NCBI GenBank assembly: GCA_039680665.1
Contig: JBDKSM010000138.1
Coordinates: 18,135-82,134 of the forward strand
DNA: 64,000 nt
Direction of reading: 5' to 3'
Origin: Syntrophaceae bacterium
Lineage (GTDB): Bacteria > Desulfobacterota > Desulfomonilia > UBA1062
Shown here one piece after another: positions 22,691 to 62,582 of the stretch; position 1 is the first letter of the stretch, and each line of letters opens with the position of its first letter. The position numbers and the translations under genes were made by a program. The notes under the pieces were generated by a model. The model had not been told where the DNA came from and made no database searches. It was given only the letters and a program-made list of their open reading frames with translations.

Positions 22691-23368
22691 TTACAGCAGC
22701 GTTTCCATCACGAAATAGAAGAAGCACAGGTTGCCCAGATAGATGATCATGACCGTGAAGGCGGCCCCCAGGCGATACCATATGGCGCGGCCCAACGAAG
22801 CTTCATAGGCCAGGAAGGCACTGAGTCCGAACAGTATCTCGGGCACGATCAGGTAGAGCGCCACATGGGCGACGGTGGTAACGTCCCGGGCATACCAGAT
22901 CGGTACCGCCCACAAGACTGTTTCCGATCCTACGAACAGCAAGAAAGATGACAGACATACCGCCAGAATGACATATTTCCGGGACGTGCGCAGGGCCAAG
23001 CGCTGTCCCAGGAATACGGTGATGAACAGGGGGATCACCCATAATCCGCCCATAAAGGCCGGGACCGCGCCGACACGCAGAGAACCCGTATCCGGAAATA
23101 CCAGCACGTTCAGCTGCGCGGCCAGGAACCAGTCCGGGAAGATCTGCAGGATGCTTAAAGGAAAAAGGAAGAGCCACAGGCGGGTCCATTCCGGATAGCC
23201 TTGCCGCATCCCGGTGATCGGGAGCGCAAGGTTGTACGCAATGACCAGGGCGCTCAAGCGGGGTCCGACCGGCAGCGCGCCCGGGATCATCAGGACCACC
23301 ACGGCGACCAGGGTAAAGAGGCCGTGCAGGATCAGGCAATCGCGTTCCATACGGTCAAGGGGCTGCAT
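22691..23368 (-). CDS. polytopic membrane protein of unknown function (lipid-operon member)
   Basis: About 7 hydrophobic helices. No catalytic motif recognised. Confidence 0.5.
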   Translation of the reverse strand: MQPLDRMERDCLILHGLFTLVAVVVLMIPGALPVGPRLSALVIAYNLALPITGMRQGYPEWTRLWLFLFPLSILQIFPDWFLAAQLNVLVFPDTGSLRVGAVPAFMGGLWVIPLFITVFLGQRLALRTSRKYVILAVCLSSFLLFVGSETVLWAVPIWYARDVTTVAHVALYLIVPEILFGLSAFLAYEASLGRAIWYRLGAAFTVMIIYLGNLCFFYFVMETLL

Positions 23369-29155: not shown

Positions 29156-30211
29156 TTAGTCCGCCAGGGCCTTGATGAGTTTGTATTGCTTGAGATCCGT
29201 GAAGAGTTCGCCCGTGTAAGGATTGCGCTTGGTCTTGGCGATCTTGTAGATCATGTAGCCGAATACGGCCACGTTCGAGAGCAGTGCCAGCAGGCTTACC
29301 ACAAACAATGCCGTCGTATCAGGCGTGGCCGAGACCACGGGATATAAACCCTCTTTGGTTAATGCCATGCCTTTTGCCGCTGCCGCAATCTGTGCGCTGG
29401 CAACCGATTGCACCGCAAAGGACCCCTTGTCGATAAATAAGGGGAAGGTCTGGGCGAACATACACCAAAGGGCCAGCGTCTGGGCGCGGTGTTGCAGCCA
29501 GGCGCCCTTGCCGACGGTGAAGGCGCAGATCGTGGGCGCGATCAATAGCGCCAGGCCACAGTACCAGGAGTGACCAGGCAGACAGTTGTAGGTGTAGGCA
29601 AAGTTCCAGAGATCATAGGCAATGATCCAGAACCAGAGCATATCCGGCCAGAGCATGTCCATGCTTGTGTCTTTGGCGGTCTTTTTACGGACACAGATCC
29701 CGAACCAGCCCGTGATCGTGATGATGTTCAGGATGCCGGCGATGCCATTCATATAGTTCCATGAGCCGCCGATGTAGTATTGCATCTGATTGTGCAGGAA
29801 CTCAATGGTGGGAACTTGGTAGATTGCACCGACCTCAAAGTCGCGCATAACCGCTTCCATGATGTTGATGGCCAGGATCAGCGGCGGGAAGCACAACGCC
29901 CATTTCATTTGGCTTAAGCGCCACTCGGTACCGTCTTTGCGTTTGCCGCGCAGGTGCCTGATGCACCAGAAACCGATGCAGCCGGCGGTCGATGAATACA
30001 CCTTGGCCACATGGAACCAGTCCATATAGGCCGTATCCTTCAAAGCCGTCAGCCATAACACCGTCAGGATGATGGGCAAAACAACAAACATGGCAAACCC
30101 TGCCCATTTGTATCTGCGCCCGACTTCATTCGATACGAACAATGCGACCAGAACCGCGAACCAAACAAGCCACACTAAAATGGAACTGACGTCCGTGCTG
30201 AAAGTAAACAT
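29156..30211 (-). CDS. Trp-rich polytopic membrane protein of unknown function
   Basis: 351 aa with about 9 TM helices. No recognisable family. Confidence 0.5.
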   Translation of the reverse strand: MFTFSTDVSSILVWLVWFAVLVALFVSNEVGRRYKWAGFAMFVVLPIILTVLWLTALKDTAYMDWFHVAKVYSSTAGCIGFWCIRHLRGKRKDGTEWRLSQMKWALCFPPLILAINIMEAVMRDFEVGAIYQVPTIEFLHNQMQYYIGGSWNYMNGIAGILNIITITGWFGICVRKKTAKDTSMDMLWPDMLWFWIIAYDLWNFAYTYNCLPGHSWYCGLALLIAPTICAFTVGKGAWLQHRAQTLALWCMFAQTFPLFIDKGSFAVQSVASAQIAAAAKGMALTKEGLYPVVSATPDTTALFVVSLLALLSNVAVFGYMIYKIAKTKRNPYTGELFTDLKQYKLIKALAD

Positions 30212-31301: not shown

Positions 31302-31930
31302 TCACGCAGTACCCGGTGTCCCCTCAGGCAGCGAAGGCGCTCCGGCCACGTTCGCGTTGCGCTTCAAGTCCTCATAGAAGATGGTCAGGCAGGTCTGGAA
31401 ATACGGCACGATCCAGAGAAACCCGATCCCCAGAGTCAGTATGCCCAAGAAGGTCCACCCGATGAACCGGCATCCCAGGCAGAAGAGCCTCCATTTATGC
31501 CCGCGCATGAGTTCCTTGCTTTGCGTAATAGCCGCCAACCCCTCCATGCCGGGATTGTCCGCCAGGATGAAGAAGGTCATGGCATAGCTCAAGGCCGCGA
31601 TGATGCCCGGTATGATGAGCAGCAGAGTCCAGAGCAGGGTGAAGAGCGTGCGCAGCAGATAGGCCAGGAAGGCATTGACGAAACGCCGGAAGCCCTCGAA
31701 AAGCTGGGAGAGCCGCATATCCCGCGTGCGCACAAAGCTTAAGTACACCAGACAGTAACCCAGCATCAGCGGCCCTGAGATCACGATGCCGGCCAGCCAG
31801 CCGATCACCGGGATGCAGTTCAGCAGGAAGATGATCGAGAAATACACGGCCGAAGCCAGGATCGGCAGCTTCCAGTTCCCTTCAACATCGCACGGGCCTG
31901 GCTGGTTGTCTCGGCATTCAACAAGGCCAT
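31302..31930 (-). CDS. DUF975-family membrane protein, apparent -1 frameshift near N-terminus
   Basis: ATG 31930 with GGAGGTG RBS encodes MALLNAETTSQARAMLKG. The DUF975-like continuation (NWKLPILASAVYF...) is in another frame. The frames join at a GGGAA/AAC homopolymer around 31876-31880. Confidence 0.5.
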
Positions 31931-31955
31931 GTGTCCACCTCCTTATTTTTTGAAT

Positions 31956-31986
31956 CCACTGGCAAGGCTGAAGCCTTTGCCAGTGG
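31956..31986. other. near-perfect 13-bp stem-loop between ankyrin and DUF975 genes
   Basis: CCACTGGCAAGGC-tgaa-GCCTTTGCCAGTGG. Flanked by a T-run on the plus strand. Confidence 0.5.
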
Positions 31987-32069
31987 CACACACGCATCTC
32001 ATTGTAACAGGGCCACCCGCCGTCCCGATCTCCTTCCTCTTTCTGCGACAACAAGATAGGAGAATGCCA

Positions 32070-36411: not shown

Positions 36412-38061
36412 TTACCAGGACGCGGCGCTGGCGATGAAGCACCCGCCTCCGGATGAGCCGCCGCCGGAATCGTCGGTCGCCGCCTGTGAGGCCCCTTTGC
36501 CCGTACCGCTTTCCGTCTCGGCATCAACCGCAGCCGCGGTCGCGACATCGGCGGCTTCTACCTTGGCCAGCCAGGCGCCCACTTTAGGAAAGACCTCAGA
36601 GGGCGTCTTCTTGCCGATTACCAGGTCGACATGGGCCGTGCCTTCGATGGTGTACCATTCATCCAGGCTATGGGGGGTCTTTTTCGATATGATATCCTGG
36701 TAGGCGTAGAGCGGGTTGACGAGCGAGCCCGAGTCGGAGAGACAGGCGATTATCGGGACCGTGACACGGTCCATGTGTTCGCTGTAGTAATAGTAACCGT
36801 CACGGCCTGGGTCCGGGGTTGGAGGTATAATCGTGCCCTGGTTCTCGATCCCGTTCATCCAGAATTCCCGTATGGTTTGGTTCAAGCCGTTGTCCATGTA
36901 ATGTGCCAGACAGCGCACGCTGCAGCCGGAGAGGACATAGCGCGCCATGAAATCCTGCATGTAGCGGTTGGTGTCCTGCATGTACCAGAAGTCCAGATAC
37001 CCGAACAGACTGTTTTCCATGCCGTTTATGAGGTAGATCTGATCCCAGGTATTGATGGCGCCGAACAGGACCTGCTCGATCGTTACCGTCACTTCGGTGG
37101 GGAAGAGCTGGAAGAGGCTCTGGGAGGCCACGTCCAGGGGCAGATAAAACCGTGAGCTCATGAGCGACCAGAAGATGTCGGTGTTCAAGTAGGACGGCAG
37201 CGGCGGCCTCCCGGCAGGGTCCAGGGCGATAAAGCCTTTGATATCGGCGTTGCGAGCGATTGCCAGGAGCGGATCGGCCTTGACGTGCGGCTGGTAGCCT
37301 TCCTCGCCCGCGGCCTTATAGAACGCGGTCTTATCCACCTGGCCGTTATAATCGAGATAGCAGCCCTGCAAGTAGGCATAGCTGACCAGGCCCCCGGTGC
37401 TGTGTCCGCCGATGTACATACGTTTGCCGGTGAGAGTTTTGACCTTGGCTATTGCCGCCGGGACATCAAGCGTGGCCCAGGTGTCCAGGGTGTTGAGCGT
37501 GCATTTATTGTCGCCTTGGCTGCGCATAGTAAGGCGGCCGGTATCGCGGTAATTGGCGAACCAGGGGTCGTAGCCCTGAAGCCAGAGGTAATGCGCCATG
37601 CTGTAGTAGCGCATCTTGTCGGCCTGGATGGAGGGCTCGAGCACCGGTTGGCCGTCCTTGTACAGCGCTTTCCCCTGGGCGTCCTTGGCAATGGCCCAGT
37701 CGGCTACCGCATCGGGCAGGTTCAGCCGGCTGTAGGAGTTCTGCATGACCTCGGGTGTACACGCAAGATACTGGTTCATGTTTTCCACGATGCCTGTGAA
37801 GAGCAGCACCGGGGTGCCCTGGTCGCGGAAGGCCGAGTTCGCATCAGGGCGATAGCGGTACAGCATGATGGTGGTGCCGTCATCGGCCGGTGTGCTGTAG
37901 ATGCCCTGAGGATCATACGGCACGCTGGAGGCCTGCGCCGTCTGCGGCATCATGGACATCCCGAGGCAGAAGGCCAGGACCAGAGTTGGAACCAAGTATA
38001 ATTTCCCGTAAACCTCCTCTTTGAGAATAAACCAAATGTTAAACAAAACGTCGCCAACCAT
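36412..38061 (-). CDS. secreted alpha/beta-hydrolase (lipase/esterase-like) paralog A with low-complexity linker and C-terminal G-x-CFI tail
   Basis: GGHSTGG nucleophile elbow. Conserved DPGRDGYYYY and TAHVDLV (His) blocks. Paralog of 56265-57758. Start uncertain (ATG 38061 with G-rich RBS, or upstream ATG 38145). Confidence 0.7.
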   Translation of the reverse strand: MVGDVLFNIWFILKEEVYGKLYLVPTLVLAFCLGMSMMPQTAQASSVPYDPQGIYSTPADDGTTIMLYRYRPDANSAFRDQGTPVLLFTGIVENMNQYLACTPEVMQNSYSRLNLPDAVADWAIAKDAQGKALYKDGQPVLEPSIQADKMRYYSMAHYLWLQGYDPWFANYRDTGRLTMRSQGDNKCTLNTLDTWATLDVPAAIAKVKTLTGKRMYIGGHSTGGLVSYAYLQGCYLDYNGQVDKTAFYKAAGEEGYQPHVKADPLLAIARNADIKGFIALDPAGRPPLPSYLNTDIFWSLMSSRFYLPLDVASQSLFQLFPTEVTVTIEQVLFGAINTWDQIYLINGMENSLFGYLDFWYMQDTNRYMQDFMARYVLSGCSVRCLAHYMDNGLNQTIREFWMNGIENQGTIIPPTPDPGRDGYYYYSEHMDRVTVPIIACLSDSGSLVNPLYAYQDIISKKTPHSLDEWYTIEGTAHVDLVIGKKTPSEVFPKVGAWLAKVEAADVATAAAVDAETESGTGKGASQAATDDSGGGSSGGGCFIASAASW

Positions 38062-38082
38062 ATGATCCCCCCTGTAAAAAAA

Positions 38083-38098
38083 GATTTGCATGCAAATC
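38083..38098. promoter_or_regulatory. 16-bp perfect palindrome upstream of lipase paralog A
   Basis: GATTTGCATGCAAATC, about 22 nt upstream of ATG 38061 on the minus strand. Confidence 0.35.
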
Positions 38099-38461
38099 GG
38101 AACAATATATGTTTTATTATTTAGCAATACCTGTACCAAGGCCAAAAACGGTGTTGCTCACCGGATCGCACGCGCTGCTGGTCAATTTAAAAACACTTGT
38201 GTAATTAACGCTAAATCATTCGAGCTTACCCATTGTGTAAATACAAATTCAAGACCGGACATGTTCTGATTTGGCTGAAAAAATGAGCCCCTCCAGAGTG
38301 GTAAAGGGATAATAATTTACCGAACGGTAATAATTTACACTGCCCTTGGCAAAAAAGTACCCTTTAAGTTTTGTAAAGTCACGGATCTGGTTATTGACTT
38401 GGAGCCCGACATGACGGCATGCTTTGTCTCTGGTACGGTACTCAATCGCACGGAGGATTGC

Positions 38462-39335: not shown

Positions 39336-40022
39336 ATGCATATTTGTGGAAAGAATGGGGTGCGGTATTGCGCGGTTATTGTGCTGATCCTGCTTGTGGC
39401 GGCTCCGTGCGCTTTTGCGCAAGGGTATGCCAAGCAGGGATTCTATCTTGGTCTGTATCTACCGTATAATGCCGTGGGTGACGAAGACTTTGACGGGAAA
39501 TCCTACATGACCGATGACAACCAAGAGGTCATGGTCCTTTTGCCGGAGATTGACAGTGCTTTTGGACTGGGTCTGGCCTTCGGCTATCGATTTTCCAAGG
39601 CCTCCTTTGAGATAAATTATCTTCAGTCCAGCCATGATGCCGACTGGAGCAATGCGGGATGGGTCGCCACGGGGGATGAGGCCGAGCTTTCCATTTTCAA
39701 CCTGGATGCCAGATACTACTTCAATACCGGAGATGCTGTGCAGCCCTTTATCTATGGCGGCATCAATCTGACGACCCTGACCGCCAAGGATTTCGCCGCC
39801 GATCCATACAGTTCGGACGACGCGGAATTTCGTGGGGCCGGGTTCAATATCGGCGGCGGTGTGGCGTTTTACCTCACCCCTCAGTTCGCGTTGACCGGGA
39901 CAGTGCTCTATCGCTATGTGAAAATGGAAGATCTTGATGCCGCAGGGGTATCCGGCGAGATCGATCACTCCCTGAATGCCAGCGACGTCAACTTTATGCT
40001 GGGCACTTCGTTTACTTTCTGA
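39336..40022 (+). CDS. outer-membrane beta-barrel protein (OmpA/OmpW-like small porin)
   Basis: Signal peptide. Alternating beta-strand pattern. C-terminal aromatic residue (…TSFTF). Confidence 0.7.
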   Translation: MHICGKNGVRYCAVIVLILLVAAPCAFAQGYAKQGFYLGLYLPYNAVGDEDFDGKSYMTDDNQEVMVLLPEIDSAFGLGLAFGYRFSKASFEINYLQSSHDADWSNAGWVATGDEAELSIFNLDARYYFNTGDAVQPFIYGGINLTTLTAKDFAADPYSSDDAEFRGAGFNIGGGVAFYLTPQFALTGTVLYRYVKMEDLDAAGVSGEIDHSLNASDVNFMLGTSFTF

Positions 40023-53010: not shown

Positions 53011-54108
53011 ATGGGCAATTGTACCCTGTGGATCGCCGGGGAGATCGCCAAGGATCTGGGACTGACCGGGCATGAATTTCCCAGCCAGATCCTGGAAGTC
53101 AAACAACTGTTGTACGAGGTTCTAAAGGACGGTCAGCCCCGCGATATCATCATGCTGCCGTTTTTCAGGAACTATACCGAGGTCGTCGGGCATATCCGCG
53201 ACCGCGGCATCGTCGGCCCCATTATCATTTATACCCAGGGTGAGACCCTGTTCATGAATATCAGCGATATGGCCAGCCAAGGTGTACTCTTCATGGACGC
53301 ATCGCGCTTCGGCAAACCCATGATGGTTGGGTTTCTTACCTTTCTGCGCCTGAGCCAAGAAGCAATCAAGCCCGAGACCGAACCGGAGCAACCCCCTCAA
53401 AAAGTCCCCTCTAGGGCTACCGGAGACATGGAGGAGATCAAGGAGATGCTACGGCAGATCATGCGTCGCCGGACCAGGCTGCTGGTTACGTGCCAGTTCC
53501 GTGAAGACTTGCCCACCTTAAGCGTTACCTGTGAGGTCATTCAGATGGTGGGCGAGGTCGAAACCAAACTGGTGCTGGACAAGTTCAACCCCCAGGAGTT
53601 TGTGGGGCTTTACCGCACTATGGCCAAGGGCAAGCCGTTGGTGGCCTATGTGAGCACGGATGAGGAATCGCTTGGTTTCGAGCTCAGAGTCGTGCACACG
53701 GTCATGGATAAGATCACGGTCCTGCTGCCCGCGACCATGTTCGACAATAAACGCCGGTTTTTCCGCGTGGAGCCTGACGTCAAAGATCCGGTTACCATGC
53801 ACATCCTACCTGAAAACAGCGCCACCAAAGCCTTCATGGTGCGGGACGTGAGTGAAGGCGGGATCGGCTTGAATGCGCCGTTTGCGGGCCTGAACTTGAA
53901 CGCGATCTACCCGATAGCGCTTACGCTTCCGGGTGGCAAACTGATCCTGGGCAGTGCCAACACGGTGTTCAAAGAAGTCATACGTGCCGATCTGTTCAAT
54001 TACGGCATGATTTTGATCCTCAATGAAACCGATATCGTCAGTGTGCGACAATATGTGTATAAACGCCAGGCCGGAATCCTGGCGGCCATCCGCAATCAGG
54101 ATCTATGA
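53011..54108 (+). CDS. PilZ domain-containing protein (putative c-di-GMP receptor)
   Basis: C-terminal PilZ motifs (RRFFRV...; DVSEGGIGL). Start abuts the upstream stop. Confidence 0.7.
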
Positions 54109-55935
54109 AGTTTGCAGCCCCAGCTTGACGGCCTGAATGCCGGCCGGGGTCATGCCTTCGATCAGCACGGCCTGCCCTAGAGTGGACGGCCGCACCGAAG
54201 CGAGGCGAGCCTTGAGCTCGTTGGATAGACCAGACAGCGCGGAATAATCGAAATCTTCCGGTATACGGATATGTTCAAGGTTCTTGAGGCGTCCGATCTC
54301 GCCCCGCTGGCGCTCGATATAGCCGGCATACTTGATGCCGGTCTCCGCCTCGATGCTTACGAGTCTCGGCTGCGGCGGCACGAGGTTCAAGCGCTGCAGG
54401 TCGTCCAGATGGACCTCCGGCCTTTTCAGGAGACGTTCCAGGGTAGTTTTCTCCCCCGCCTCGGTCTTATCCGGCGTAAGCGCCGCCGGGATGGCCACGG
54501 ATGTACGCATCAGCGTGGTCCGCAATTGTTCGATCTGATCCGCGAGTTCCTGTACTTGCGCGCACCGAGCAGGAGTGATGAGCCCGAGATCAGAGGCCCG
54601 TACGGAAAGCCGGAACAAGGCATTGGTTTCGCGCAACAGCAGCCGGTACTCGGCGCGCGAGGTGAACAGGCGGTAGGGCTCGCTGGTGCCGCGCGTGGTC
54701 AGGTCGTCGATCATGACCGCGATATAGGCCTCGGACCGATCGAGCACGAACGGGTCTTGTCCCCTGACCGCCAAGGCGGCGTTGATGCCGGCCATGATAC
54801 CCTGGCCTGCGGCTTCCTCGTAACCGGATGTTCCATTGACCTGTCCGGCCAGGTACAAACCGGGAACGGTCTTGGCCTCGAGCGTACGTTTGAGCTGCGT
54901 AGGCAGGATAAAATCATATTCGATGGCATAGGCCGGCCTGAGGATCTCGGCCCTTTCAAGGCCCGGCACGGAACGTACGATTTCCCACTGCAGCGCGGCC
55001 GGCAGGGAATTTCCCAGGCCCGAGGCGTATACCTCCCTGGTGTCGATGCCTTCGGGCTCGATGATCACCTGGTGCCCGGCGCGGTCGCCGAAGCGCATGA
55101 TCTTGTCCTCCAGCGAAGGGCAGTAACGCGCCGGAGTCCCGGTGATGGCCCCGGAATACAAGGGACTGGCCATGATATTATCCCGGATGATCCGGTGCGT
55201 CTCGGCCGTGGTGCGCGTCAGATAGCAGGGCAGCTGCGGCAGCTCAGAGGGTGTGGAGCCAAAACCCAACGGCAGGCATCCTTGCTCCGGGTCCTGGTGC
55301 TCCATGGCCGCCAGATCGAGACTGTCCCGGTGCAGCCTTGGCGGCGTGCCGGTCTTGAGTCTGCCGGTCTTGAGCCCGAGAGCTTTCAAAGCCTCGGAGA
55401 GTTCGTCCGCGCCCTCTTCCCCTGCCCGACCCGCCGGATAATGCTGGGTGCCGATATAAATAAGCCCCGAAAGGAAAGTGCCCGCAGCGATAATCACCGC
55501 TTTGCCCGAGCAGAAATCACCCTTCTGGTCGACCACGCCCGTGACGCGTCCACCTTCGGTCATGATCCGCACGACCTTGGCCTGCCGCAGATGCACCCCG
55601 GAGCATTCCAGCCTGGACTTGATGGCGGCCTCATAGCGCCGCCGGTCGTTCTGGGTGCGCGTGGCCCGCACGGCCGGACCCTTCTTGGTGTTGAGCACCC
55701 GGTATTGGATGGCCGTGGCGTCCGCGGCCTCGGCCATGATGCCGCCCAGGGCGTCGATCTCCTTGACCAGATGGCTCTTGGCCAGCCCGCCGATCGACGG
55801 GCTGCAGGGCATGCGGCCGATGGTGTCCAGATTGATCGTGAACAGCGCCACCTCGCACCCCAGCTTGCCGGCCGCCACGGCGGCCTCGGCCCCGGCATGC
55901 CCGCCGCCCACGACAATGATGTCGAAACGCTCCAT
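54103..55935 (-). CDS. mnmG: tRNA uridine-5-carboxymethylaminomethyl modification enzyme MnmG (GidA)
   Basis: [22 protein letters not shown] motif. About 610 aa. Confidence 0.9.
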
Positions 55936-56264
55936 AGCCCTTCCCTCTAGGGCAAATTGAAACATCACGCAAGGACATAAAAACTCGCGCTTCTGATGGA
56001 GATGACAGCTGGTTCATGGAAACATGGTTATTTGAAATCCGTTCGCAGATAGGGTTCTTGATCACAGGAAGTCCTTACGGTGCCCTCCTGTTGTGGGCCA
56101 TGGCTGGCACTGAAACTTATAGCTTGACAAGTATTATGAAAATATAATCTATTATAATCTATAATTTACTAATCGTGTAAAGAACTTTTCGCGTCTTGGC
56201 CCGGTCAGGAAACCAAGGAAAAGATCTTTTTGAGAAGACAATCCACGAATGAGGAGAATCGACG

Positions 56265-57758
56265 ATGGAAATGAAGAACAACCGGTGGATGCATGTAGTT
56301 TTGTGCTGTCTTATTTGTCTCTGGCTGGCCGTACCGGCAATGGCTGCTGACGGTCTCTTCTCGACCGTTACCGATGATGGAGTGACGCTCAAGATGTTGC
56401 GCTATCGCCCTGCACCGGATGCAAACTTCAGGGTCGGTGGCCAGCCGGTTCTGTTGTTCCCGGGAATTGTATGCAACATGAATGCGTTTCTCAGCTTTAC
56501 CCCGGAAGAGCGCACGAAGGACTATGCCGGTATGACCCTGCCTGTGCCCATTGCCGACTGGGCCAAGGATGACCCTTATATTCAGGCTGATCCCATGAGG
56601 TATTACAGTCTTGCCCACTATCTGTGGCTGAAAGGCTATGATGTGTGGCTCGCCAATTACCGCGGCACCGGACGCGGCGAATTCGTGAGCGACAAAGGCA
56701 ATCTCCTGACGAATAACGATGTTTGGGGCATTCTTGATGCCGTTGCCTGCGTAAACAAGGTTGTCGAGGTGACCGGTCAGGCGCCCTTCATCGGCGGTCA
56801 CAGCACGGGCGGCTTTACGTGTTATGCCTACCTGCAAGGCGCCACCTTTGATCTGGATGAACTCAAGGAGGGGGCCGCGAACGGGTATACACCGCATGTG
56901 AAGGCCAACCCTCTCCTGGCTGCGGCGCGCAATGCCATGATCAAGGGCTATATTGCCCTCGACCCGGGTTTAACGCCTAACGTGCCTCAGAGTATTGATG
57001 TGCCGCTCATGTGGGAGATCTTCGGACAGGCGGGCTACCTTGATTTGGATACCCTCATGGAAAATGTCGTCAACCCCCTGATCACGGACAGCGATATCAT
57101 GATCACCGCCATTGATACGGTCATGGACCTGATCACCGAGGTCAACAGTGAATACGGTGAATATCTCGACATCATCCCCTGTCTTGATTTCTGGTACATG
57201 GCCAACATGCATCCTTTCGTGAACGACTTCTTCGCCCGCTATGCCTGTTCGAGCGTCTATATCCGCGGGCTCGGCCAGTGGGGCGATATCGGTCTGCATA
57301 GGTCTATCCGTGAGTTCTGGAGAAACGGCGCAGAGAATAAGGATGTCGTCCAGGCCCCTGAGCCGGATCCCGGCAGGGATGGTTACTATTACTATGACAG
57401 GAACATGCATCTCTTGACCATTCCGACGATTGCTATCCTTTCCTATTCCGACGCCCTGGTGAGAGCAGATGATGTGATCACGTATCTCATGGAGGCCAAG
57501 ACCTATAATGCTGGCGACGAGTACCATCTTATCCCCAATTCTGCGCACCTGGATGTAATCTGCGGACTCAACGCCCCATACATTACCTTCCCGCTGATCG
57601 GAGTATGGCTCGATAAGGAATGCGCCAAGCAGGCTGCTCAAGCGGGAACGGGTTCGGCCTCGGCCGAAGATGCCAAAGCCGCAAACACTGCTACCAGCGG
57701 TTCCTCCGATGGGAGCAGCAAAGGTATGTGCTTTATCGAAACCGTGCTTGGAGCATAA
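56265..57758 (+). CDS. secreted alpha/beta-hydrolase (lipase/esterase-like) paralog B with low-complexity linker and C-terminal G-x-CFI tail
   Basis: Signal peptide (…CLWLAVPAMAADG). GGHSTGG. DPGRDGYYYY. SAHLDVI. C-terminal …GSSDGSSKGMCFIETVLGA. GAGGAG RBS. Confidence 0.8.
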   Translation: MEMKNNRWMHVVLCCLICLWLAVPAMAADGLFSTVTDDGVTLKMLRYRPAPDANFRVGGQPVLLFPGIVCNMNAFLSFTPEERTKDYAGMTLPVPIADWAKDDPYIQADPMRYYSLAHYLWLKGYDVWLANYRGTGRGEFVSDKGNLLTNNDVWGILDAVACVNKVVEVTGQAPFIGGHSTGGFTCYAYLQGATFDLDELKEGAANGYTPHVKANPLLAAARNAMIKGYIALDPGLTPNVPQSIDVPLMWEIFGQAGYLDLDTLMENVVNPLITDSDIMITAIDTVMDLITEVNSEYGEYLDIIPCLDFWYMANMHPFVNDFFARYACSSVYIRGLGQWGDIGLHRSIREFWRNGAENKDVVQAPEPDPGRDGYYYYDRNMHLLTIPTIAILSYSDALVRADDVITYLMEAKTYNAGDEYHLIPNSAHLDVICGLNAPYITFPLIGVWLDKECAKQAAQAGTGSASAEDAKAANTATSGSSDGSSKGMCFIETVLGA

Positions 57759-57820
57759 ATCATCCCGATCCAAGACATCGGCTTGTGCTTTGAGTGGGCC
57801 GTAAGCCGGTCCGGAAATAC

Positions 57821-57855: not shown

Positions 57856-58230
57856 TTACGTTTCTATCAGGCTTTGCACCTTGAATAGGATGATATGCGG
57901 CGGAGAGGGCTTTACCAGATAGAGATTGGCGCCGGCTTCATGGGCCTTGCGGCGGTGTTCGGCACCGCTCTCGGTGGTGAGCATGATGATTGGAAGGTCT
58001 TTCAAATCAGGATTGCCGCGGATATTGCTGATCAGCTCGATGCCGTCCATATTGGGCATATTCAGGTCGGAGATCACCAGTTTGACGTCCGGGTGCTGGG
58101 CCAGTTTTTCCAAGGCATCGATGCCGTCCACGGCCTCCACGCACTTGAAGTTCTTGGGTTTGAGCGTGTGCACGAGAATTTTGCGCACGGTCACGGAGTC
58201 ATCGACGATCAGTATCTTTGCCATGGACAT
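57856..58230 (-). CDS. cheY: CheY-like single-domain response regulator
   Basis: KILIVDDS...D...K receiver motifs. 124 aa. Confidence 0.85.
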   Translation of the reverse strand: MSMAKILIVDDSVTVRKILVHTLKPKNFKCVEAVDGIDALEKLAQHPDVKLVISDLNMPNMDGIELISNIRGNPDLKDLPIIMLTTESGAEHRRKAHEAGANLYLVKPSPPHIILFKVQSLIET

Positions 58231-58237
58231 CTACCAC

Positions 58238-59098
58238 CTACTCTTTCTTATAGCCCAGCGCACCGGGAAAATGCACCAGCTTGAAGGCGCGCGTGATGTT
58301 GTGCAGCGATTCGGAGTGGCCGATGAACAGATAGCCGCCGGGGTTGATGTTGTCATAGAGATGCGAGACGATTTTTTTGCGGGCCGCGTCATCGAAATAG
58401 ATCAACACGTTGCGGCAGAAGATGATGTCGAAGCCCTTCATGAGCTGCATACGCTGGGAATCCATGAAGTTCAGGAACTGGAGCTCGACCAGGGCACGGA
58501 TCTCGTCCGTGACCACGAACTGGGAGTTTTCGGCCTTGAAGTATTTCTGGCGTACTTCGACCGGGACGCCGCGCAGGGCATACTCATTATACGTGGCCAG
58601 TTTGGCGCTACGCAGAGCCTTCTCGCTGATATCGCTGGCATAGATCTTGATGTCCCACTCGCGTAAGGTATCCTGGAGCAGCTCTTTGAGCACGATGCCC
58701 AAGGTGTAGGCCTCCTCGCCGGTGGAGCAGCCGGCCGACCAGAGCCTGAGCGTTTTCTCCCCGGCCTTCTGACGGCGCGTCATGACATCGGGCAGCGCCT
58801 TTTCGGCAAAGGCCTCGATCTGGGGGGGGCTTCGGAAGAAACTGGTCTCGTTGGTGGTGATGGTGTCGTAGAGCGACCGCAATTCCTTGGCCGCCTGGGG
58901 GTCGTACTTGAGCAGGTAGTAGTACTTCTCGTAATCGGTGAAATTGTAGGCCTTGAGCCGGAAGGTCAACCGGTTTTCTAAGAGGCTCTTCTTGGAATCG
59001 GCGAAGTATATGCCGGATTTTTCGTAGATGAAGTCTCTCAGCTGCAGAAATTGTTCACCGGTCATCAGGATTCCGCTGGGCTGGCTGGCTAATTCCAT
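58238..59098 (-). CDS. cheR: chemotaxis protein methyltransferase CheR
   Basis: CheR N- and SAM-MTase domains (LRLWSAGCSTGEEAYTLG). Confidence 0.9.
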   Translation of the reverse strand: MELASQPSGILMTGEQFLQLRDFIYEKSGIYFADSKKSLLENRLTFRLKAYNFTDYEKYYYLLKYDPQAAKELRSLYDTITTNETSFFRSPPQIEAFAEKALPDVMTRRQKAGEKTLRLWSAGCSTGEEAYTLGIVLKELLQDTLREWDIKIYASDISEKALRSAKLATYNEYALRGVPVEVRQKYFKAENSQFVVTDEIRALVELQFLNFMDSQRMQLMKGFDIIFCRNVLIYFDDAARKKIVSHLYDNINPGGYLFIGHSESLHNITRAFKLVHFPGALGYKKE

Positions 59099-59116
59099 GG
59101 GGCTTCCCTCACATCC

Positions 59117-59980
59117 TCACTCGCTCATCGACTTGATGTATTCCCGCACGGTGTCCGCGAGCGAATCCATCTCAAAGGTGATGCGTTCAAGATCCAATTC
59201 ATCCATGGGGTAGCGGTGTTCGATCAGGGTCTGCCAGCCCGTCTGATCGGCGAGCACGAACGATAACTTGTCGCCGCCGTAGGAAAGCTGTTTGGCCTTG
59301 GCCAACAGATCGGCGATGGAGATCAAGGCCGTCATGGGTTTGAATTGGGACATCTCCGGGGCATGATGCCAGCGGATGATATCCCGTAAGTAATCGGGCA
59401 GGTTCCAACGCTCGGCCAGGAAGGCGCCGACTTCCATGTGGGTTGTGCCCAGAACTTCCTGTTCAGCTTCATACAGCGGGCAATCGCGCGTGATGGAAAG
59501 GTCGAGGGCCTTGTTGAAATCGTCGCGTACGGTGTAGTCGAGCACGATCTTGCCGATGTCGTGCAGCAACCCGCCGACAAACTCGCGACCCTGGGTTTCC
59601 ATCCTGATCTTGCGCGCCATGGTGCGTGCGACAATGGCGGTCGCTACGCAGTGGTCCCAGAAGGACTCCCAGATGAACCCCTTTTTGCTGGTGAACGTGG
59701 AGATAACCGATACCGATGAGGTGATGTTGATGATCTCGGACAGACCCAGTATGGTAATGGCGCGCTGGATGGTTTCCACCGGTTTGTCCCCGCGTTTATA
59801 GAACGAGGAGTTGGCCATCTTGAGCATCTTGGTCGCCAGCGGGGGATCTTTGTGGATCACCTCAGAGAGCTTGGAAATGCTCACATTTGGCGCATGTGCC
59901 AGGGAGAGCGCCTCCATGGCCACCGCCGGCAAGGTGGGCAGATCGTCGATCTTTTTGATCTTTTCGAGGATGCTTGTCAT
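59117..59980 (-). CDS. HDOD domain-containing signalling protein
   Basis: HDOD signature (LPTLPAVA...LLHDIGKIVL). Confidence 0.75.
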   Translation of the reverse strand: MTSILEKIKKIDDLPTLPAVAMEALSLAHAPNVSISKLSEVIHKDPPLATKMLKMANSSFYKRGDKPVETIQRAITILGLSEIINITSSVSVISTFTSKKGFIWESFWDHCVATAIVARTMARKIRMETQGREFVGGLLHDIGKIVLDYTVRDDFNKALDLSITRDCPLYEAEQEVLGTTHMEVGAFLAERWNLPDYLRDIIRWHHAPEMSQFKPMTALISIADLLAKAKQLSYGGDKLSFVLADQTGWQTLIEHRYPMDELDLERITFEMDSLADTVREYIKSMSE

Positions 59981-59981
59981 G

Positions 59982-61892: not shown

Positions 61893-61910
61893 CCTCTAAA
61901 AACCATGATC

Positions 61911-62582
61911 TTATTTAAGATCGTAACGCGTGAAGGTCACATCGGAAACATCATAGGCCCGCAAACTTTCCTTTAACATCTCGGTGATCTCGAACTGGGT
62001 ATAGACCTCGACATTCTTGTTCAAAGTCTCGTTGATCAGGGCGCGGATCTCATACTGCCGGTCCCTGACGTTGGCGGCTGTTTTCGGATTCACGGACAGG
62101 ACCACCTCGGCCATTAACAGACCGGCTTTGCCCTGTTTCTGGGGCGTATACAGGACCATGAAAGGATCCAGGGTGATCTCGCCCGCGTTCAGGACGTTCA
62201 AGGGTTTGGGTGCCAGACTTTGGGTGGATGGAGTCACGGCGGCAGATTTCTGCGAGTTCTTGTGCCAGAGATACCCCCCCACGCCCATGACCAGCAGTAC
62301 GACGACGGATAACGCCGCGGCGGCGATGATGATCGTGGTGCGCCGGGAGGAGGCAGGCTTTTGTGCGGCCGTCTCTTCCGGGGTTTCAGCCGCATCGGTT
62401 GACTCGGAGGATTCCTGATTGGCTAAAGGGATGCCGTCCTTGTCGAGATCGACCTTGCCCTGTTTGGCCAGGGCGATGCCGTCCTTATCAAGTTCAACCT
62501 TGCCCGGCGTTCCAGCGGATTGGTTATCGGGCAGTTTGATGCCGTCTTTGTCGAGCTCGGCCTTCTTACCGGGTTTGGCCAC
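61911..62582 (-). CDS. FliL-like flagellar basal-body-associated protein with N-terminal tandem repeats
   Basis: Single TM helix plus FliL-type periplasmic domain (…GEITLDPFMV…). N-terminus has three ELDKDGI(K/A/P)L repeat units. Confidence 0.65.
   Translation of the reverse strand: MAKPGKKAELDKDGIKLPDNQSAGTPGKVELDKDGIALAKQGKVDLDKDGIPLANQESSESTDAAETPEETAAQKPASSRRTTIIIAAAALSVVVLLVMGVGGYLWHKNSQKSAAVTPSTQSLAPKPLNVLNAGEITLDPFMVLYTPQKQGKAGLLMAEVVLSVNPKTAANVRDRQYEIRALINETLNKNVEVYTQFEITEMLKESLRAYDVSDVTFTRYDLK
62423..62565 (-). repeat. three imperfect tandem DNA repeats (63- and 45-nt periods) encoding the ELDKDGI units
   Basis: GATGCCGTCCTTGTCGAGATCGACCTTGCC-like units starting at 62430, 62475 and 62538. 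Confidence 0.7.

What the first reader, a model, noticed from the sequence alone, without database searches (positions are those of the whole stretch)
36412..36570. Two paralogous secreted alpha/beta-hydrolases share a conserved C-terminal module: a low-complexity linker followed by a G-x-C-F-I tail
The genes at 36412-38061 (-) and 56265-57758 (+) are clear paralogs. They are colinear with a GGHSTGG nucleophile elbow, a DPGRDGYYYY block and a (T/S)AH(V/L)D(L/V) His block. Both end the catalytic domain at FP-x-(V/I)G-x-WL-x-K. Both then carry a 35-40 aa Ala/Gly/Ser/Thr/Asp linker and finish with GGGCFIASAASW or KGMCFIETVLGA. The Cys-Phe-Ile core, about 9 residues from the C-terminus, is conserved although the linkers have diverged. 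The tail is too short to be a PEP-CTERM, GlyGly-CTERM or LPXTG-type TM sorting domain. It is not at the extreme end as a CaaX box would be. A conserved short Cys-containing tag after a flexible linker on two secreted enzymes suggests an uncharacterised post-translational anchoring, processing or lipidation signal. Paralog B's tail is at 57723-57755.
Basis: seen in the sequence. Interest (0 to 1): 0.7.

Follow-up and report, generated by a model that had tools for sequence, protein, structure and literature searches.

The report
Short CFI-box C-terminal sorting tag
Two secreted lipase-like enzymes of a Syntrophaceae bacterium end in a short Cys-Phe-Ile tail that NCBI curators already list as an untested "putative sorting motif", and the same tail sits on many unrelated exported proteins.

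Summary
Genes A (36412-38061, -) and B (56265-57758, +) are 43%-identical, gastric-lipase-like alpha/beta hydrolases. Each has a signal peptide, a 37-40 aa low-complexity linker and a 9-residue tail (CFIASAASW, CFIETVLGA).

The tail is not a new kind of element. It is the short form of the "CFI-box", curated as NCBIfam NF041763 ("CFI-box putative sorting motif"). It is also the first residues of the widespread NF041770 "CFI-box-CTERM" domain, which adds a helical region, a TM helix and an Arg cluster. Both window tails score below NCBI's cut-off, so the genes are annotated only as hypothetical or alpha/beta hydrolase.

- 28 of 120 hydrolase homologs keep CF[IV] 7-15 residues from the end, or 30 in one case, while their linkers diverge.
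- Other homologs carry a Cys + TM + Arg signal or no extension.
- Unrelated S8 proteases show the same swaps: short CFI, long CFI-box-CTERM, Cys/TM/Arg, T9SS domain.
- A metagenome scan found G(n)-C-F-I-x-T-[IVM]-[FL] ending at least 19 unrelated exported protein families.
- AlphaFold gives pLDDT below 50 for the tail, so it is not modelled as part of the hydrolase fold.

The most likely role is a portable surface-sorting or anchoring tag that acts through its invariant Cys. No processing enzyme was found and the function is untested.

The parts
36412..38061 (-). Gene A: exported lipase-like alpha/beta hydrolase, 549 aa, with a C-terminal linker and CFI tail. The mechanical ORF extends to a TTG at 38145.
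   Evidence: ORF. It is 43% identical to B. Pfam gives only weak Hydrolase_4/Abhydrolase_6 hits. A promoter-like site at 38145-38116 favours the ATG at 38061. The NCBI ortholog is MEN6474762.1, 'hypothetical protein ABFD81_12165' of a Syntrophaceae bacterium.
37930..38061 (-). Probable Sec signal peptide of A: MVGDVLFNIWFILKEEVYGKLYLVPTLVLAFCLGMSMMPQTAQA|SS.
   Evidence: Read from the sequence: a hydrophobic core followed by an A-Q-A cleavage-type site. No signal-peptide predictor was available.
37390..37410 (-). Nucleophile elbow GGHSTGG of A (catalytic Ser).
   Evidence: The G, S and G of the elbow are invariant in the 56-sequence alignment and the other four residues are nearly invariant.
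36442..36561 (-). 40-aa low-complexity Ala/Gly/Ser/Thr/Asp linker of A.
   Evidence: The equivalent region of B is disordered in the AlphaFold model. Linkers of homologs are not conserved.
36415..36441 (-). CFI-box tail of A, CFIASAASW. The Cys codon is 36439-36441 and the stop is 36412-36414.
   Evidence: NF041763 scores 14.0 bits on the tail against a cut-off of 15.9, covering model positions 2-12 of 14. It is the top window hit of a long-form CFI-box-CTERM HMM built here (E = 0.006). The degenerate pattern is unique in the window.
56265..57758 (+). Gene B: exported lipase-like alpha/beta hydrolase, 497 aa, with a C-terminal linker and CFI tail.
   Evidence: ORF. Pfam Abhydrolase_1 scores 30 bits. 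The AlphaFold model has mean pLDDT 91.4. Its best PDB folds are gastric and lysosomal acid lipases 1k8q, 6v7n and 1hlg, with E from 1e-16 to 1e-14. The NCBI ortholog is MEN6474780.1, 'alpha/beta fold hydrolase'.
56265..56345 (+). Probable Sec signal peptide of B: MEMKNNRWMHVVLCCLICLWLAVPAMA|ADG.
   Evidence: Read from the sequence. The model shows an N-terminal helix at residues 5-25.
56793..56813 (+). Nucleophile elbow GGHSTGG of B.
57618..57728 (+). 37-aa low-complexity linker of B (ECAKQAAQAGTGSASAEDAKAANTATSGSSDGSSKGM).
   Evidence: Block-mean pLDDT is 69 over residues 461-470 and 49 over 471-480.
57729..57755 (+). CFI-box tail of B, CFIETVLGA. The 7-residue core CFIETVL fits the short-form consensus C-F-I-x-T-[IVM]-[FL]. 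The stop is 57756-57758.
   Evidence: The consensus comes from 26 distinct tails of unrelated proteins. Residues 475-497 have pLDDT below 50. NF041763 gives no hit, because Lys-Gly-Met replaces the poly-Gly run before the Cys.

Best explanation
The two tails are short-form CFI-boxes. This is a portable C-terminal module of Sec-exported proteins: a flexible Gly/Ser/Asp-rich spacer, then C-F-I-x-[TS]-hydrophobic-hydrophobic, then 0-5 further residues and the stop codon.

**Shown**
- The module sits on many unrelated exported proteins.
- It is under selection independently of the enzyme domain.
- In orthologs it is exchanged for the long CFI-box-CTERM membrane anchor, for Cys/TM/Arg tripartite signals, for T9SS domains, or for nothing.

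**Inferred mechanism**
- After export and signal-peptide removal, the disordered spacer presents the 7-residue core to an envelope factor that has not been identified.
- The invariant Cys is the reactive residue. It is most likely S-lipidated or otherwise thio-linked.
- The few residues downstream may then be trimmed. This is the same logic as CaaX and MYXO-CTERM processing, but without a TM segment.
- The result would be a lipase-like hydrolase tethered to the cell surface on a roughly 40-aa stalk rather than released.

A is a variant whose box (CFIASAA) resembles the long-form box CFIATAAYGS. B carries the canonical short core (CFIETVL).
For: **Identity as a CFI-box**
- NF041763 is the only family hit by the A tail. 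It is hit by 14 of 25 hydrolase tails; the only other family hit, retention_LapA, matched one tail at E = 0.3.
- All 10 short tails tested from unrelated proteins hit it at 13.6-18.5 bits. Model positions 8-14 correspond to C-F-I-x-T-V-F.

**Portability**
- S8 protease homologs end in GGGGCFIRTVLPW, GGGCFIKTILH, GGGCFISTILP or GGGGGCFIATAAFGKKMK.
- Their relatives carry the long CFI-box-CTERM, GCGS/TM/RRRR tails or T9SS domains instead.
- A pattern with no stop codon in it gave 37 hits in ORFs of at least 120 aa. In 32 of them the Cys lies no more than 12 residues from the stop.
- These fall into at least 19 unrelated clusters, including SBBP and NHL propellers, a GDSL lipase, a Sortilin/BNR protein and a multicopper oxidase.

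**Selection**
- 28 of 120 hydrolase homologs keep C-F-[IV] while their linkers diverge.

**Accessibility**
- The tail and linker have pLDDT below 50, while the enzyme domain scores above 90.

**Sorting-signal criteria**
- Criteria 1, 3, 6, 7 and 8 of Haft (bioRxiv 10.1101/2023.06.07.544157) are met.

**Analogy for the Cys**
- MYXO-CTERM has an invariant Cys. Cleavage by the CPBP protease MrtX requires it. The protein is predicted to be lipidated and reaches the surface through the T2SS (PMC11980579).
- T2SS E, F or D genes lie within 8 kb of long-form CFI genes in 8 of 120 loci.
Against: - There is no TM helix and no basic cluster. An intramembrane protease of the known sortase-like classes would have no membrane-embedded substrate segment to act on.
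- No candidate processing enzyme lies near A, B, their paralog, the short-form S8 genes, 120 long-form loci or 51 short-form loci.
- Both window tails score below NCBI's cut-off, and B gives no HMM hit at all.
- Multiple occurrence within one genome is shown only for three paralogous hydrolases.
- Modification of the Cys is pure analogy. No experiment or publication on the CFI-box was found.
Confidence: 0.5

Rival explanations
1. Non-covalent docking peptide. The short amphipathic or hydrophobic core (F, I, V/I, F/L) binds a groove or a beta-barrel edge of an envelope protein. It tethers the enzyme without any chemistry at the Cys, or through a reversible disulfide.
For: - The core is only 7 residues, is hydrophobic and sits at the end of a disordered spacer.
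- No processing enzyme was found.
- The residues after the core vary in number and kind. That fits recognition of an internal peptide better than exact C-terminal chemistry.
Against: - Absolute invariance of Cys, and near-invariance of Thr or Ser four residues later, is unusual for a purely hydrophobic docking peptide.
- No receptor candidate recurs next to these genes.
- No stand-alone remainder of the long-form domain occurs in the window or in the flanking loci of the same genome.
Confidence: 0.2
2. Outer-membrane translocation signal. The tag marks periplasmic intermediates for export by a type II secretion system or a related pathway, and the protein is then released rather than anchored.
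For: - T2SS E, F and D genes, confirmed by Pfam, lie within 8 kb of long-form CFI genes in 8 of 120 loci.
- GlyGly-CTERM and MYXO-CTERM proteins are T2SS cargo (PMC11980579; abstract of 10.64898/2026.02.05.703148).
Against: - T2SS substrates are generally recognised as folded proteins, not through a linear C-terminal tag (general knowledge).
- The long spacer and the interchange with membrane-anchoring modules, long CFI-box-CTERM and Cys/TM/Arg, point to tethering.
- T2SS linkage was seen only for long-form genes, and in a minority of loci.
Confidence: 0.12
3. Evolutionary relic. The short tail is what remains after truncation of a long CFI-box-CTERM anchor, and it has no function of its own.
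For: - The A tail (CFIASAA) resembles the long-form box CFIATAAYGS.
- The L121-type S8 proteases end in CFIATAAFGKKMK, which looks like a truncated long form.
Against: - The short form has its own consensus, T-[IVM]-[FL], in place of TAAYGS.
- It has a tightly constrained length, mostly 8-9 residues from the Cys, across at least 19 unrelated clusters.
- It persists in hydrolase orthologs down to about 43% identity while the adjacent linkers have randomised.
- NCBI built a separate model for it.
Confidence: 0.05
4. Intrapeptide cross-link or redox element. The invariant Cys and the Thr or Ser four residues later are joined, as in a lanthionine-type or radical-SAM thioether. Alternatively the Cys binds a metal or cofactor, giving a small stable cap rather than a sorting tag.
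For: C and T/S at positions i and i+4 are the two polar invariants of both the short and long forms. The lineages concerned are anaerobes rich in radical-SAM enzymes (general knowledge).
Against: - No maturase gene recurs next to these genes.
- The carriers are large Sec-exported proteins of many families, not RiPP precursors.
- The interchange with classical anchoring signals is not explained.
Confidence: 0.05
5. Enzyme-specific role. The tail would act as an autoinhibitory plug, or as a disulfide partner for the hydrolase domain.
For: Many B-type homologs have a second Cys just after the WLDK motif, as in WLDKEC and WLDKIC.
Against: - A lacks that Cys.
- The identical tail occurs on proteases, propellers, oxidases and lectin-domain proteins.
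- AlphaFold does not dock the tail onto the domain.
Confidence: 0.03

Closest known systems
NCBIfam NF041763 'sort_motif_CFI' (CFI-box putative sorting motif-containing protein; 14-position HMM)
   Same: - It models the same thing: a Gly-rich run followed by C-F-I-x-T-[VI]-[FL] at the extreme C-terminus of exported proteins.
- B's core CFIETVL fits it residue by residue.
- A's tail is its only NCBIfam hit.
   Different: - Both window proteins fall below the curated cut-off. A scores 14.0 against 15.9 bits and B gives no hit.
- B has K-G-M in place of poly-Gly. A has S-A-A in place of T-[VI]-[FL].
- The family carries only a 'putative' label. No publication or experiment was found.
NCBIfam NF041770 'CFI-box-CTERM domain' (long form)
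   Same: - It begins with the same poly-Gly plus CFI(A)T box.
- It is also C-terminal on signal-peptide proteins of unrelated families.
- It replaces the short tail in S8 protease orthologs (P0273 and P0285 against P0270-P0272).
   Different: - The long form continues for about 100 residues: a conserved helical region (VLRxFRDxxLLTN..GRxFVxxYYxxSPPxAxxI), a TM helix and an Arg cluster.
- The window proteins stop 8 residues after the Cys.
- The long form is very common, with 23,701 clusters at 50% identity at E <= 1e-10.
MYXO-CTERM / myxosortase (MrtX) and the related JDVT-, Synerg- and CGP-CTERM signals
   Same: - They are C-terminal tags of exported proteins with an invariant Cys that follows Gly or low-complexity sequence.
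- They occur on unrelated proteins.
- Homologs carry alternative signals or none.
- The proposed logic is the same: lipidate the Cys, remove what follows, display on the surface.
   Different: - These are tripartite signals (motif, TM helix, Arg cluster) cleaved by a CPBP intramembrane protease.
- The CFI tail has no TM helix and no basic cluster.
- No CPBP gene lies nearby.
- The signature residues differ: GCGC and the like against CFIxT.
Eukaryotic CaaX box processing (prenyltransferase, Rce1, Icmt)
   Same: Both have a Cys near the C-terminus followed by hydrophobic residues (F, I) and no TM segment. Both would use a lipidate-then-trim logic. Rce1 belongs to the same CPBP superfamily as the myxosortases.
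   Different: - The CaaX Cys is exactly fourth from the end and acts in the cytosol.
- Here the Cys is mostly 7-12 residues from the end, on Sec-exported proteins, with a further conserved Thr and two hydrophobic residues.
- No bacterial prenyltransferase link is known.
LPXTG/sortase, PEP-CTERM/exosortase, PGF-CTERM/archaeosortase, GlyGly-CTERM/rhombosortase
   Same: All combine a C-terminal position, a preceding low-complexity stalk, a one-to-many distribution and swapping among homologs.
   Different: All of these require a TM helix and a basic tail, and each has an identified enzyme family. The short CFI-box has neither.

Membership tests
NCBIfam NF041763 CFI-box putative sorting motif (short form) | HMM score at or above the curated cut-off of 15.9 bits | tested here: not met
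   The A tail scores 14.0 bits on a 20-aa query, 11.8 on 24 aa and 9.4 on 54 aa. The full-length protein is not reported at E <= 1. B is never reported. For comparison, 5 of 10 short tails from unrelated proteins pass the cut-off.
NCBIfam NF041763 CFI-box putative sorting motif (short form) | Core C-F-I-x-T-[IVM]-[FL] | tested here: met
   B has CFIETVL, an exact fit. A has CFIASAA, which keeps C-F-I and a hydroxyl residue at position +4 but has Ala-Ala at +5 and +6. The consensus comes from 26 distinct tails and from the model alignment.
NCBIfam NF041763 CFI-box putative sorting motif (short form) | The motif ends the protein, with the Cys about 7-12 residues from the C-terminus | tested here: met
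   The Cys is the 9th residue from the end in both A and B. Each true stop is followed by a hairpin. The reference distribution is 8 residues in 13 cases, 9 in 11, 7 in 4 and 10 in 2.
NCBIfam NF041763 CFI-box putative sorting motif (short form) | Gly run immediately before the Cys | tested here: inconclusive
   A has GGG before the Cys. B has K-G-M, and other B-type orthologs have GGM, GGT or STF. In the reference set the Gly run of 3-11 was imposed by the search pattern, so how necessary it is remains unknown.
NCBIfam NF041763 CFI-box putative sorting motif (short form) | Carried by exported proteins of unrelated families | tested here: met
   Signal-peptide-like N-termini are seen on A, B and the complete metagenome ORFs. 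The carriers are alpha/beta hydrolases, S8 proteases, propellers, a GDSL lipase and a multicopper oxidase. No signal-peptide predictor was available.
NCBIfam NF041770 CFI-box-CTERM domain (long form) | A 69-position domain after the box, followed by a TM helix and an Arg cluster | tested here: not met
   The proteins end 8 residues after the Cys. The long-form HMM matches only the box: 13.5 bits for A and 4.8 for B. True members score 108-113 bits.
Tripartite C-terminal sorting signals (criteria of Haft, bioRxiv 10.1101/2023.06.07.544157) | 1) at the C-terminus; 3) at least 3 near-invariant signature residues; 6) N-terminal signal peptide | tested here: met
   The criteria are quoted.
Tripartite C-terminal sorting signals (criteria of Haft, bioRxiv 10.1101/2023.06.07.544157) | 2) multiple occurrences in one genome | tested here: inconclusive
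   Three copies occur in the Syntrophaceae MAG: A, B and P0040 (ABFD81_05325). The P0040 locus has a tetranucleotide correlation of 0.98 with the window. All three are paralogous hydrolases. The whole genome could not be scanned.
Tripartite C-terminal sorting signals (criteria of Haft, bioRxiv 10.1101/2023.06.07.544157) | 4) TM helix and 5) basic cluster after the motif | tested here: not met
   Only 6 residues follow CFI (ASAASW, ETVLGA). They contain no hydrophobic span and no Arg or Lys.
Tripartite C-terminal sorting signals (criteria of Haft, bioRxiv 10.1101/2023.06.07.544157) | 7) shared by proteins with no other similarity; 8) homologs lack it or carry another signal | tested here: met
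   At least 19 unrelated clusters carry it. Hydrolase homologs have GCGS/TM/Arg tails, other tails or none. S8 homologs have the long CFI domain, Cys/TM/Arg tails or T9SS domains.
Tripartite C-terminal sorting signals (criteria of Haft, bioRxiv 10.1101/2023.06.07.544157) | Cognate processing enzyme that co-occurs | tested here: inconclusive
   No recurrent protease or transferase lies within 8-10 kb in any locus set. Genome-wide phylogenetic profiling cannot be done with these tools.
CaaX box | Cys exactly fourth from the C-terminus, on a cytosolic protein | tested here: not met
   The Cys is 9th from the end, and the proteins carry signal peptides.
Hint / intein-like autoprocessing (G|C-F junction) | A Hint domain of about 130-150 aa following the Cys | tested here: not met
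   Only 8 residues follow the Cys. There is no coding room downstream.
Alpha/beta hydrolase fold, gastric/lysosomal acid lipase-like (enzyme domain only) | Fold with a G-x-S-x-G elbow and conserved Asp and His blocks | tested here: met
   Abhydrolase_1 scores 30 bits for B. The Foldseek top hits are 1k8q, 6v7n and 1hlg, E from 1e-16 to 1e-14, TM-score normalised to target about 0.7. S180, D430 and H428 are invariant. There is no sequence-level PDB relative, and the substrate was not tested.

The most novel reading that the evidence does not exclude
The short CFI-box would be the substrate tag of a sorting system that has not been discovered. It would be the first prokaryotic C-terminal sorting signal that works without a transmembrane segment. 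In this reading a CaaX-like, extracytoplasmic 'modify the Cys, then trim' pathway, or a covalent thio-linkage to an envelope component, tethers dozens of exoenzymes in Thermodesulfobacteriota (Desulfobacterota) and probably in the other, so far unplaced, lineages seen in metagenomes. The long CFI-box-CTERM would be the membrane-held version of the same substrate.
Probability: 0.25. Interest if true: 0.75.

Novelty: new member of a known kind. Interest (0 to 1): 0.35.

Why it matters
**What changes for these genes.** The finding gives a better reading of two, and with paralog P0040 three, 'hypothetical' or generic hydrolase genes of a syntrophic Syntrophaceae bacterium. They are probably surface-tethered lipase-like exoenzymes.

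**Wider point.** The CFI-box is an orphan. It is curated as a 'putative sorting motif' but has no publication, no identified enzyme and no experiment. The short form lacks the TM helix and basic cluster that every characterised sortase-type signal needs.

**What this analysis adds.**
- The short form is interchangeable with the long CFI-box-CTERM anchor and with Cys/TM/Arg signals inside two unrelated enzyme families.
- Its core is a 7-residue unit, C-F-I-x-T-[IVM]-[FL].
- NCBI's cut-off misses real instances such as A and B.

If the tag is a TM-independent anchoring signal, it would be a new mechanism of surface display in environmentally important anaerobes, and a compact tag for engineering.

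Tried and rejected
**Ideas rejected**
- **Read-through or a downstream CTERM domain.** Each stop is followed by a hairpin, and the neighbouring gene lies about 95-100 bp away.
- **Long-form domain, or a stand-alone remainder of it, in this genome region.** An HMM search of the six-frame translations of the window and of L001-L003, L125-L127 matched only the tails themselves.
- **Known CTERM models for the alternative GCGS/TM/Arg tails.** Only sub-threshold, generic TM matches appeared: Loki-CTERM, LPXTG and JDVT.
- **Pfam domain for the tail or for the long form.** None was found.
- **Dedicated sorting enzyme in the neighbourhood.**
  - All-against-all clustering of ORFs from 120 long-form loci gave no conserved protease or transferase.
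  - The same was true for 51 short-form loci plus the window.
  - Inspection of the A, B, P0040, P0271, P0272 and P0025 loci found nothing either.
  - The multi-TM proteins of the window are hydrogenase/complex-I-like subunits (judged from their sequences, not scanned) and DUF6989, DUF5692 and DUF975 proteins, not CPBP, rhomboid or exosortase enzymes.
- **OMP beta-barrel genes near A and near P0040 as a conserved partner.** They are not homologous (E = 0.023).

**Searches that could not be run or gave nothing useful**
- **AlphaFold model of the long-form domain, to see how the box packs.** Confidence was low (pLDDT 66, box below 50), so it is uninformative.
- **Literature searches** for CFI-box, CFIATAAYG, GGCFI, NF041763 and similar terms found nothing relevant.
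- **Additional short tails in 870 kb around long-form genes.** Only L121 and L046 turned up, and both had been picked by the search pattern itself.
- **Same-genome origin of other short-form contigs.** Tetranucleotide correlation reached at most 0.85, except for the P0040 locus.


Full report
**1. The observation**

- Gene A is the ORF 36412-38145 on the minus strand. Its likely start is the ATG at 38061, because a promoter-like site overlaps 38145-38116. Gene B is 56265-57758 on the plus strand. Both are as described.
- They are clear paralogs: BLASTP gives 43% identity and E = 1e-121.
- GGHSTGG, DPGRDGYYYY, the AH(V/L)D block and FPx(V/I)GxWLxK are all present at the stated places.
- After WL(A/D)K come 40 aa (A) and 37 aa (B) of Ala/Gly/Ser/Thr/Asp-rich sequence. 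The tails follow: CFIASAASW (36415-36441) and CFIETVLGA (57729-57755), with the Cys ninth from the end in both.
- Each stop codon is followed by a hairpin, and the neighbouring gene is about 95-100 bp away. Nothing is hidden downstream.
- Among window ORFs of at least 150 aa, no other one ends in CFI.

**2. The enzymes**

- Pfam sees only weak alpha/beta-hydrolase matches, and no solved structure is detectable by sequence.
- An AlphaFold model of B built on 56 homologs is confident: mean pLDDT 91.4 and pTM 0.88.
- Its closest solved folds are dog and human gastric lipase and lysosomal acid lipase (1k8q, 1hlg, 6v7n), with E from 1e-16 to 1e-14.
- Both proteins start with signal-peptide-like sequences ending in A-x-A. 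This is by inspection, since no predictor was available.
- The organism is a Syntrophaceae MAG with NCBI locus tags ABFD81_. There A is annotated 'hypothetical protein' and B 'alpha/beta fold hydrolase'.
- The same MAG has a third paralog with a CFI tail (P0040...GGGCFIVSARF) and a fourth without one (P0014).
- The P0040 locus has a tetranucleotide correlation of 0.98 with the window.

**3. The tail within the hydrolase family**

Of the 120 best homologs, 28 end in CF[IV].
- C and F are invariant and I is present in 26 of the 28.
- A small or hydroxyl residue is common two positions later.
- The distance from Cys to the end is 7-11 residues in 25 of the 28 (mode 9); the other three are 13, 15 and 30.
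- The preceding linkers share only their composition.

The other homologs fall into four groups.
- Twelve end in an acidic linker, then [FG]GCGSxAxA, a TM helix and an Arg/Lys cluster. This is a classic tripartite signal that no NCBIfam model captures.
- Another clade ends in NPxNTxTPAxR[IV]DE.
- Archaeal members end in Y..TPH.
- Many stop right after WLxK.

In the model of B, the residues from 475 to the end have pLDDT below 50. The tail is therefore conserved, modular and unstructured.

**4. What the tail is**

- Scanning the tails against NCBIfam gives one meaningful family: NF041763, 'CFI-box putative sorting motif-containing protein', a 14-position model.
- A scores 14.0 bits against a cut-off of 15.9, and B is not reported.
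- Fourteen of 25 family tails match it; the only other family hit, retention_LapA, matched one tail at E = 0.3.

- 115 of them contain the box, nearly all as the same architecture: poly-Gly, then CFIATAA[YF]GS, then a conserved helical region of about 55 aa, a TM helix and an Arg cluster. The whole runs about 100-115 residues from the Cys to the stop.
- This is NCBIfam NF041770 'CFI-box-CTERM domain', scoring 108-113 bits. NCBI uses that name in annotation.
- The family is very large: 23,701 clusters at 50% identity at E <= 1e-10. The domain is C-terminal in nearly all of the best hits, on proteins of 122 to over 2,000 aa.
- Carriers are concentrated in Desulfobacterota (Geobacter, Smithella, Syntrophales, Desulfobacteraceae, Desulfobulbaceae), Nitrospirota, Omnitrophota, Planctomycetota, Chloroflexota and NC10, with some Gammaproteobacteria.

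**5. The short form is a distinct, portable unit**

One genome hit, L121, is an S8 subtilase ending in ...SSGGGGGCFIATAAFGKKMK. Its homologs include:
- three close relatives with the same tail;
- three at 40-44% identity ending in ...GGGGCFIRTVLPW, ...GGGCFIKTILH and ...GGGCFISTILP, with the Cys 8-9 residues from the end;
- two with the full long CFI-box-CTERM (Cys at -103 and -105);
- three with a Cys motif plus TM plus Arg, one of which is the same GCGS type seen in the hydrolases;
- many with T9SS C-terminal domains.

A metagenome scan for GGG-CFI-x-T-[VIM]-[LF], with no stop codon in the pattern, gave 51 loci.
- 37 hits lie in ORFs of at least 120 aa.
- In 32 of those the Cys is no more than 12 residues from the stop: 8 residues in 13 cases, 9 in 11 and 7 in 4. 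Four of the other five lie within 27 residues of the stop and one lies 150 residues from it.
- The 26 distinct tails define a 7-residue core, C-F-I-x-T-[IVM]-[FL], followed by 0-5 variable residues.
- The carriers fall into at least 19 unrelated clusters.
- These include SBBP and NHL beta-propellers, a GDSL lipase with a LamG domain, a Sortilin/BNR protein, a multicopper oxidase and S8 proteases. Signal peptides are visible on the complete ones.

All ten such tails tested hit NF041763 at 13.6-18.5 bits, and model positions 8-14 align to C-F-I-x-T-V-F. NF041763 is therefore the model of exactly this short form.
- B's CFIETVL fits the core perfectly but lacks the poly-Gly run that contributes much of the score.
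- A's CFIASAA is intermediate between the short core and the long-form box.

**6. Mechanism**

What is shown:
- The module is at the C-terminus, exposed, and under selection.
- It is carried by unrelated exported proteins.
- It is interchangeable with bona fide membrane-anchoring C-terminal signals.

These satisfy Haft's criteria 1, 3, 6, 7 and 8 for sorting signals. Criteria 4 and 5, the TM helix and basic cluster, fail.

What is inferred:
- The tag probably retains or anchors the protein at the cell envelope, with the invariant Cys as the reactive group.
- The closest worked example is MYXO-CTERM. Its invariant Cys is required for cleavage by the CPBP protease myxosortase. The protein is predicted to be lipidated and reaches the surface through the T2SS (PMC11980579).
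- The long spacer resembles the stalks that precede LPXTG, PEP-CTERM and PGF-CTERM signals.
- T2SS E, F and D genes lie within 8 kb of long-form CFI genes in 8 of 120 loci, which is a weak hint of the same route.
- Because the short form has no TM segment, any enzyme must act on a soluble or peripherally bound tail. In that respect the logic is closer to CaaX processing than to the sortase-type systems.

No enzyme candidate emerged from any neighbourhood analysis.

Rivals that remain open are a non-covalent docking peptide, an outer-membrane export signal and a Cys-Thr cross-link. A relic of truncation and an enzyme-specific role are disfavoured by the data in section 5.

An AlphaFold model of the long-form domain was too uncertain to show how the box is used: pLDDT 66 overall and below 50 for the box.

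**7. Novelty and verdict**

Its interpretation is supported as far as sequence analysis can go.
- The motif is already curated by NCBI in two models, although no paper in the library mentions it.
- The window contributes two sub-threshold members, three with the paralog, on a lipase-like hydrolase family. It is a new member of a known, uncharacterised kind.
- Interest is moderate. The CFI-box is a genuine orphan, and the TM-less short form is mechanistically puzzling. This window adds substrates, not the missing enzyme.

Noticed in passing
Homologs P0018, P0020, P0022, P0024, P0025, P0028, P0031-P0034, P0036, P0037 (hydrolases) and P0281 (S8 protease): These proteins end in an acidic or Ser-rich linker, then [FG]GCGSxAxA(S), 10-15 further residues, a TM helix and an Arg/Lys cluster. 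This is a tripartite, Cys-containing C-terminal signal. It matches no NCBIfam CTERM model above cut-off, giving only generic TM similarity to Loki-CTERM, LPXTG and JDVT-CTERM. It may be an uncurated sorting signal of Spirochaetota and Syntrophales.
   Followed up: partly
Homologs P0078-P0110 (hydrolase subclade): A conserved C-terminal extension, ...VDALPxNPxNTxTPAxR[IV]DE, replaces the CFI tail. It has no family match and its role is unknown. Archaeoglobus-type homologs (P0060-P0064, P0070 and others) instead end in Y..TPH.
   Followed up: no
Loci L010, L013, L024, L027, L032, L035, L042, L101; also L084, L085, L093, L113: Type II secretion genes lie within 8 kb of long-form CFI-box-CTERM genes in 8 of 120 loci. 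Pfam confirmed T2SSE, T2SSF and the Secretin/GspD N0 domain. A PDZ-domain protein, possibly GspC-like, recurs next to them in four NC10/Chloroflexi loci.
   Followed up: partly
L125 12292-13323, L180 10461-11318, and also L146 and L156: A Peptidase_S58 (DmpA-like) gene sits directly downstream of the short-CFI S8 protease. In L125 it overlaps the S8 gene by 28 nt. This is family-specific synteny and probably an operon.
   Followed up: no
P0386, P0387, P0388, P0398: A few proteins carry two matches to the CFI-box-CTERM profile, or an internal copy. In P0387 (1142 aa), for example, the domain lies at residues 609-715. These may be gene fusions, mis-called genes or true internal copies.
   Followed up: no
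L045 (Thermoplasmata archaeon MAG): An archaeal protein has a CFI-box (GGGCFIATAALGS) followed by only about 60 residues that include the TM segment. The conserved FRD...YY..SPP region is missing. It is an intermediate between the long and short forms.
   Followed up: no
window 39336-40022 (+) and L126 14570-15247 (-): Small OMP_b-brl outer-membrane proteins lie 1-3 kb from gene A and from its paralog P0040. They are not homologous to each other (E = 0.023), so this is probably coincidence.
   Followed up: yes
window 22691-23368 (-), 29156-30211 (-), 31302-32054 (-): Three multi-pass membrane proteins of unknown function: DUF6989, DUF5692 and DUF975. None resembles a known sorting protease.
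   Followed up: partly
window 53011-54108 (+) and 57856-62582 (-): Gene B is flanked by a PilZ-domain protein upstream. Downstream lies a chemotaxis-like cluster: a response regulator, CheR, an HDOD/HD protein, a HEAT-repeat protein and then, beyond the window, FliA, a ParA-family ATPase (MinD/FlhG-like), FlhF and FlhA. There is no evident functional link to the hydrolase.
   Followed up: no
window 36631-37155 (+), 37285-38001 (+), 54271-55950 (+), 56205-56897 (-), 56970-57773 (-): Long ORFs run antisense to genes A, B and mnmG. They have low-complexity, Arg/Gly/Pro-rich translations. They are most likely by-products of the 56% G+C content and not genes.
   Followed up: no
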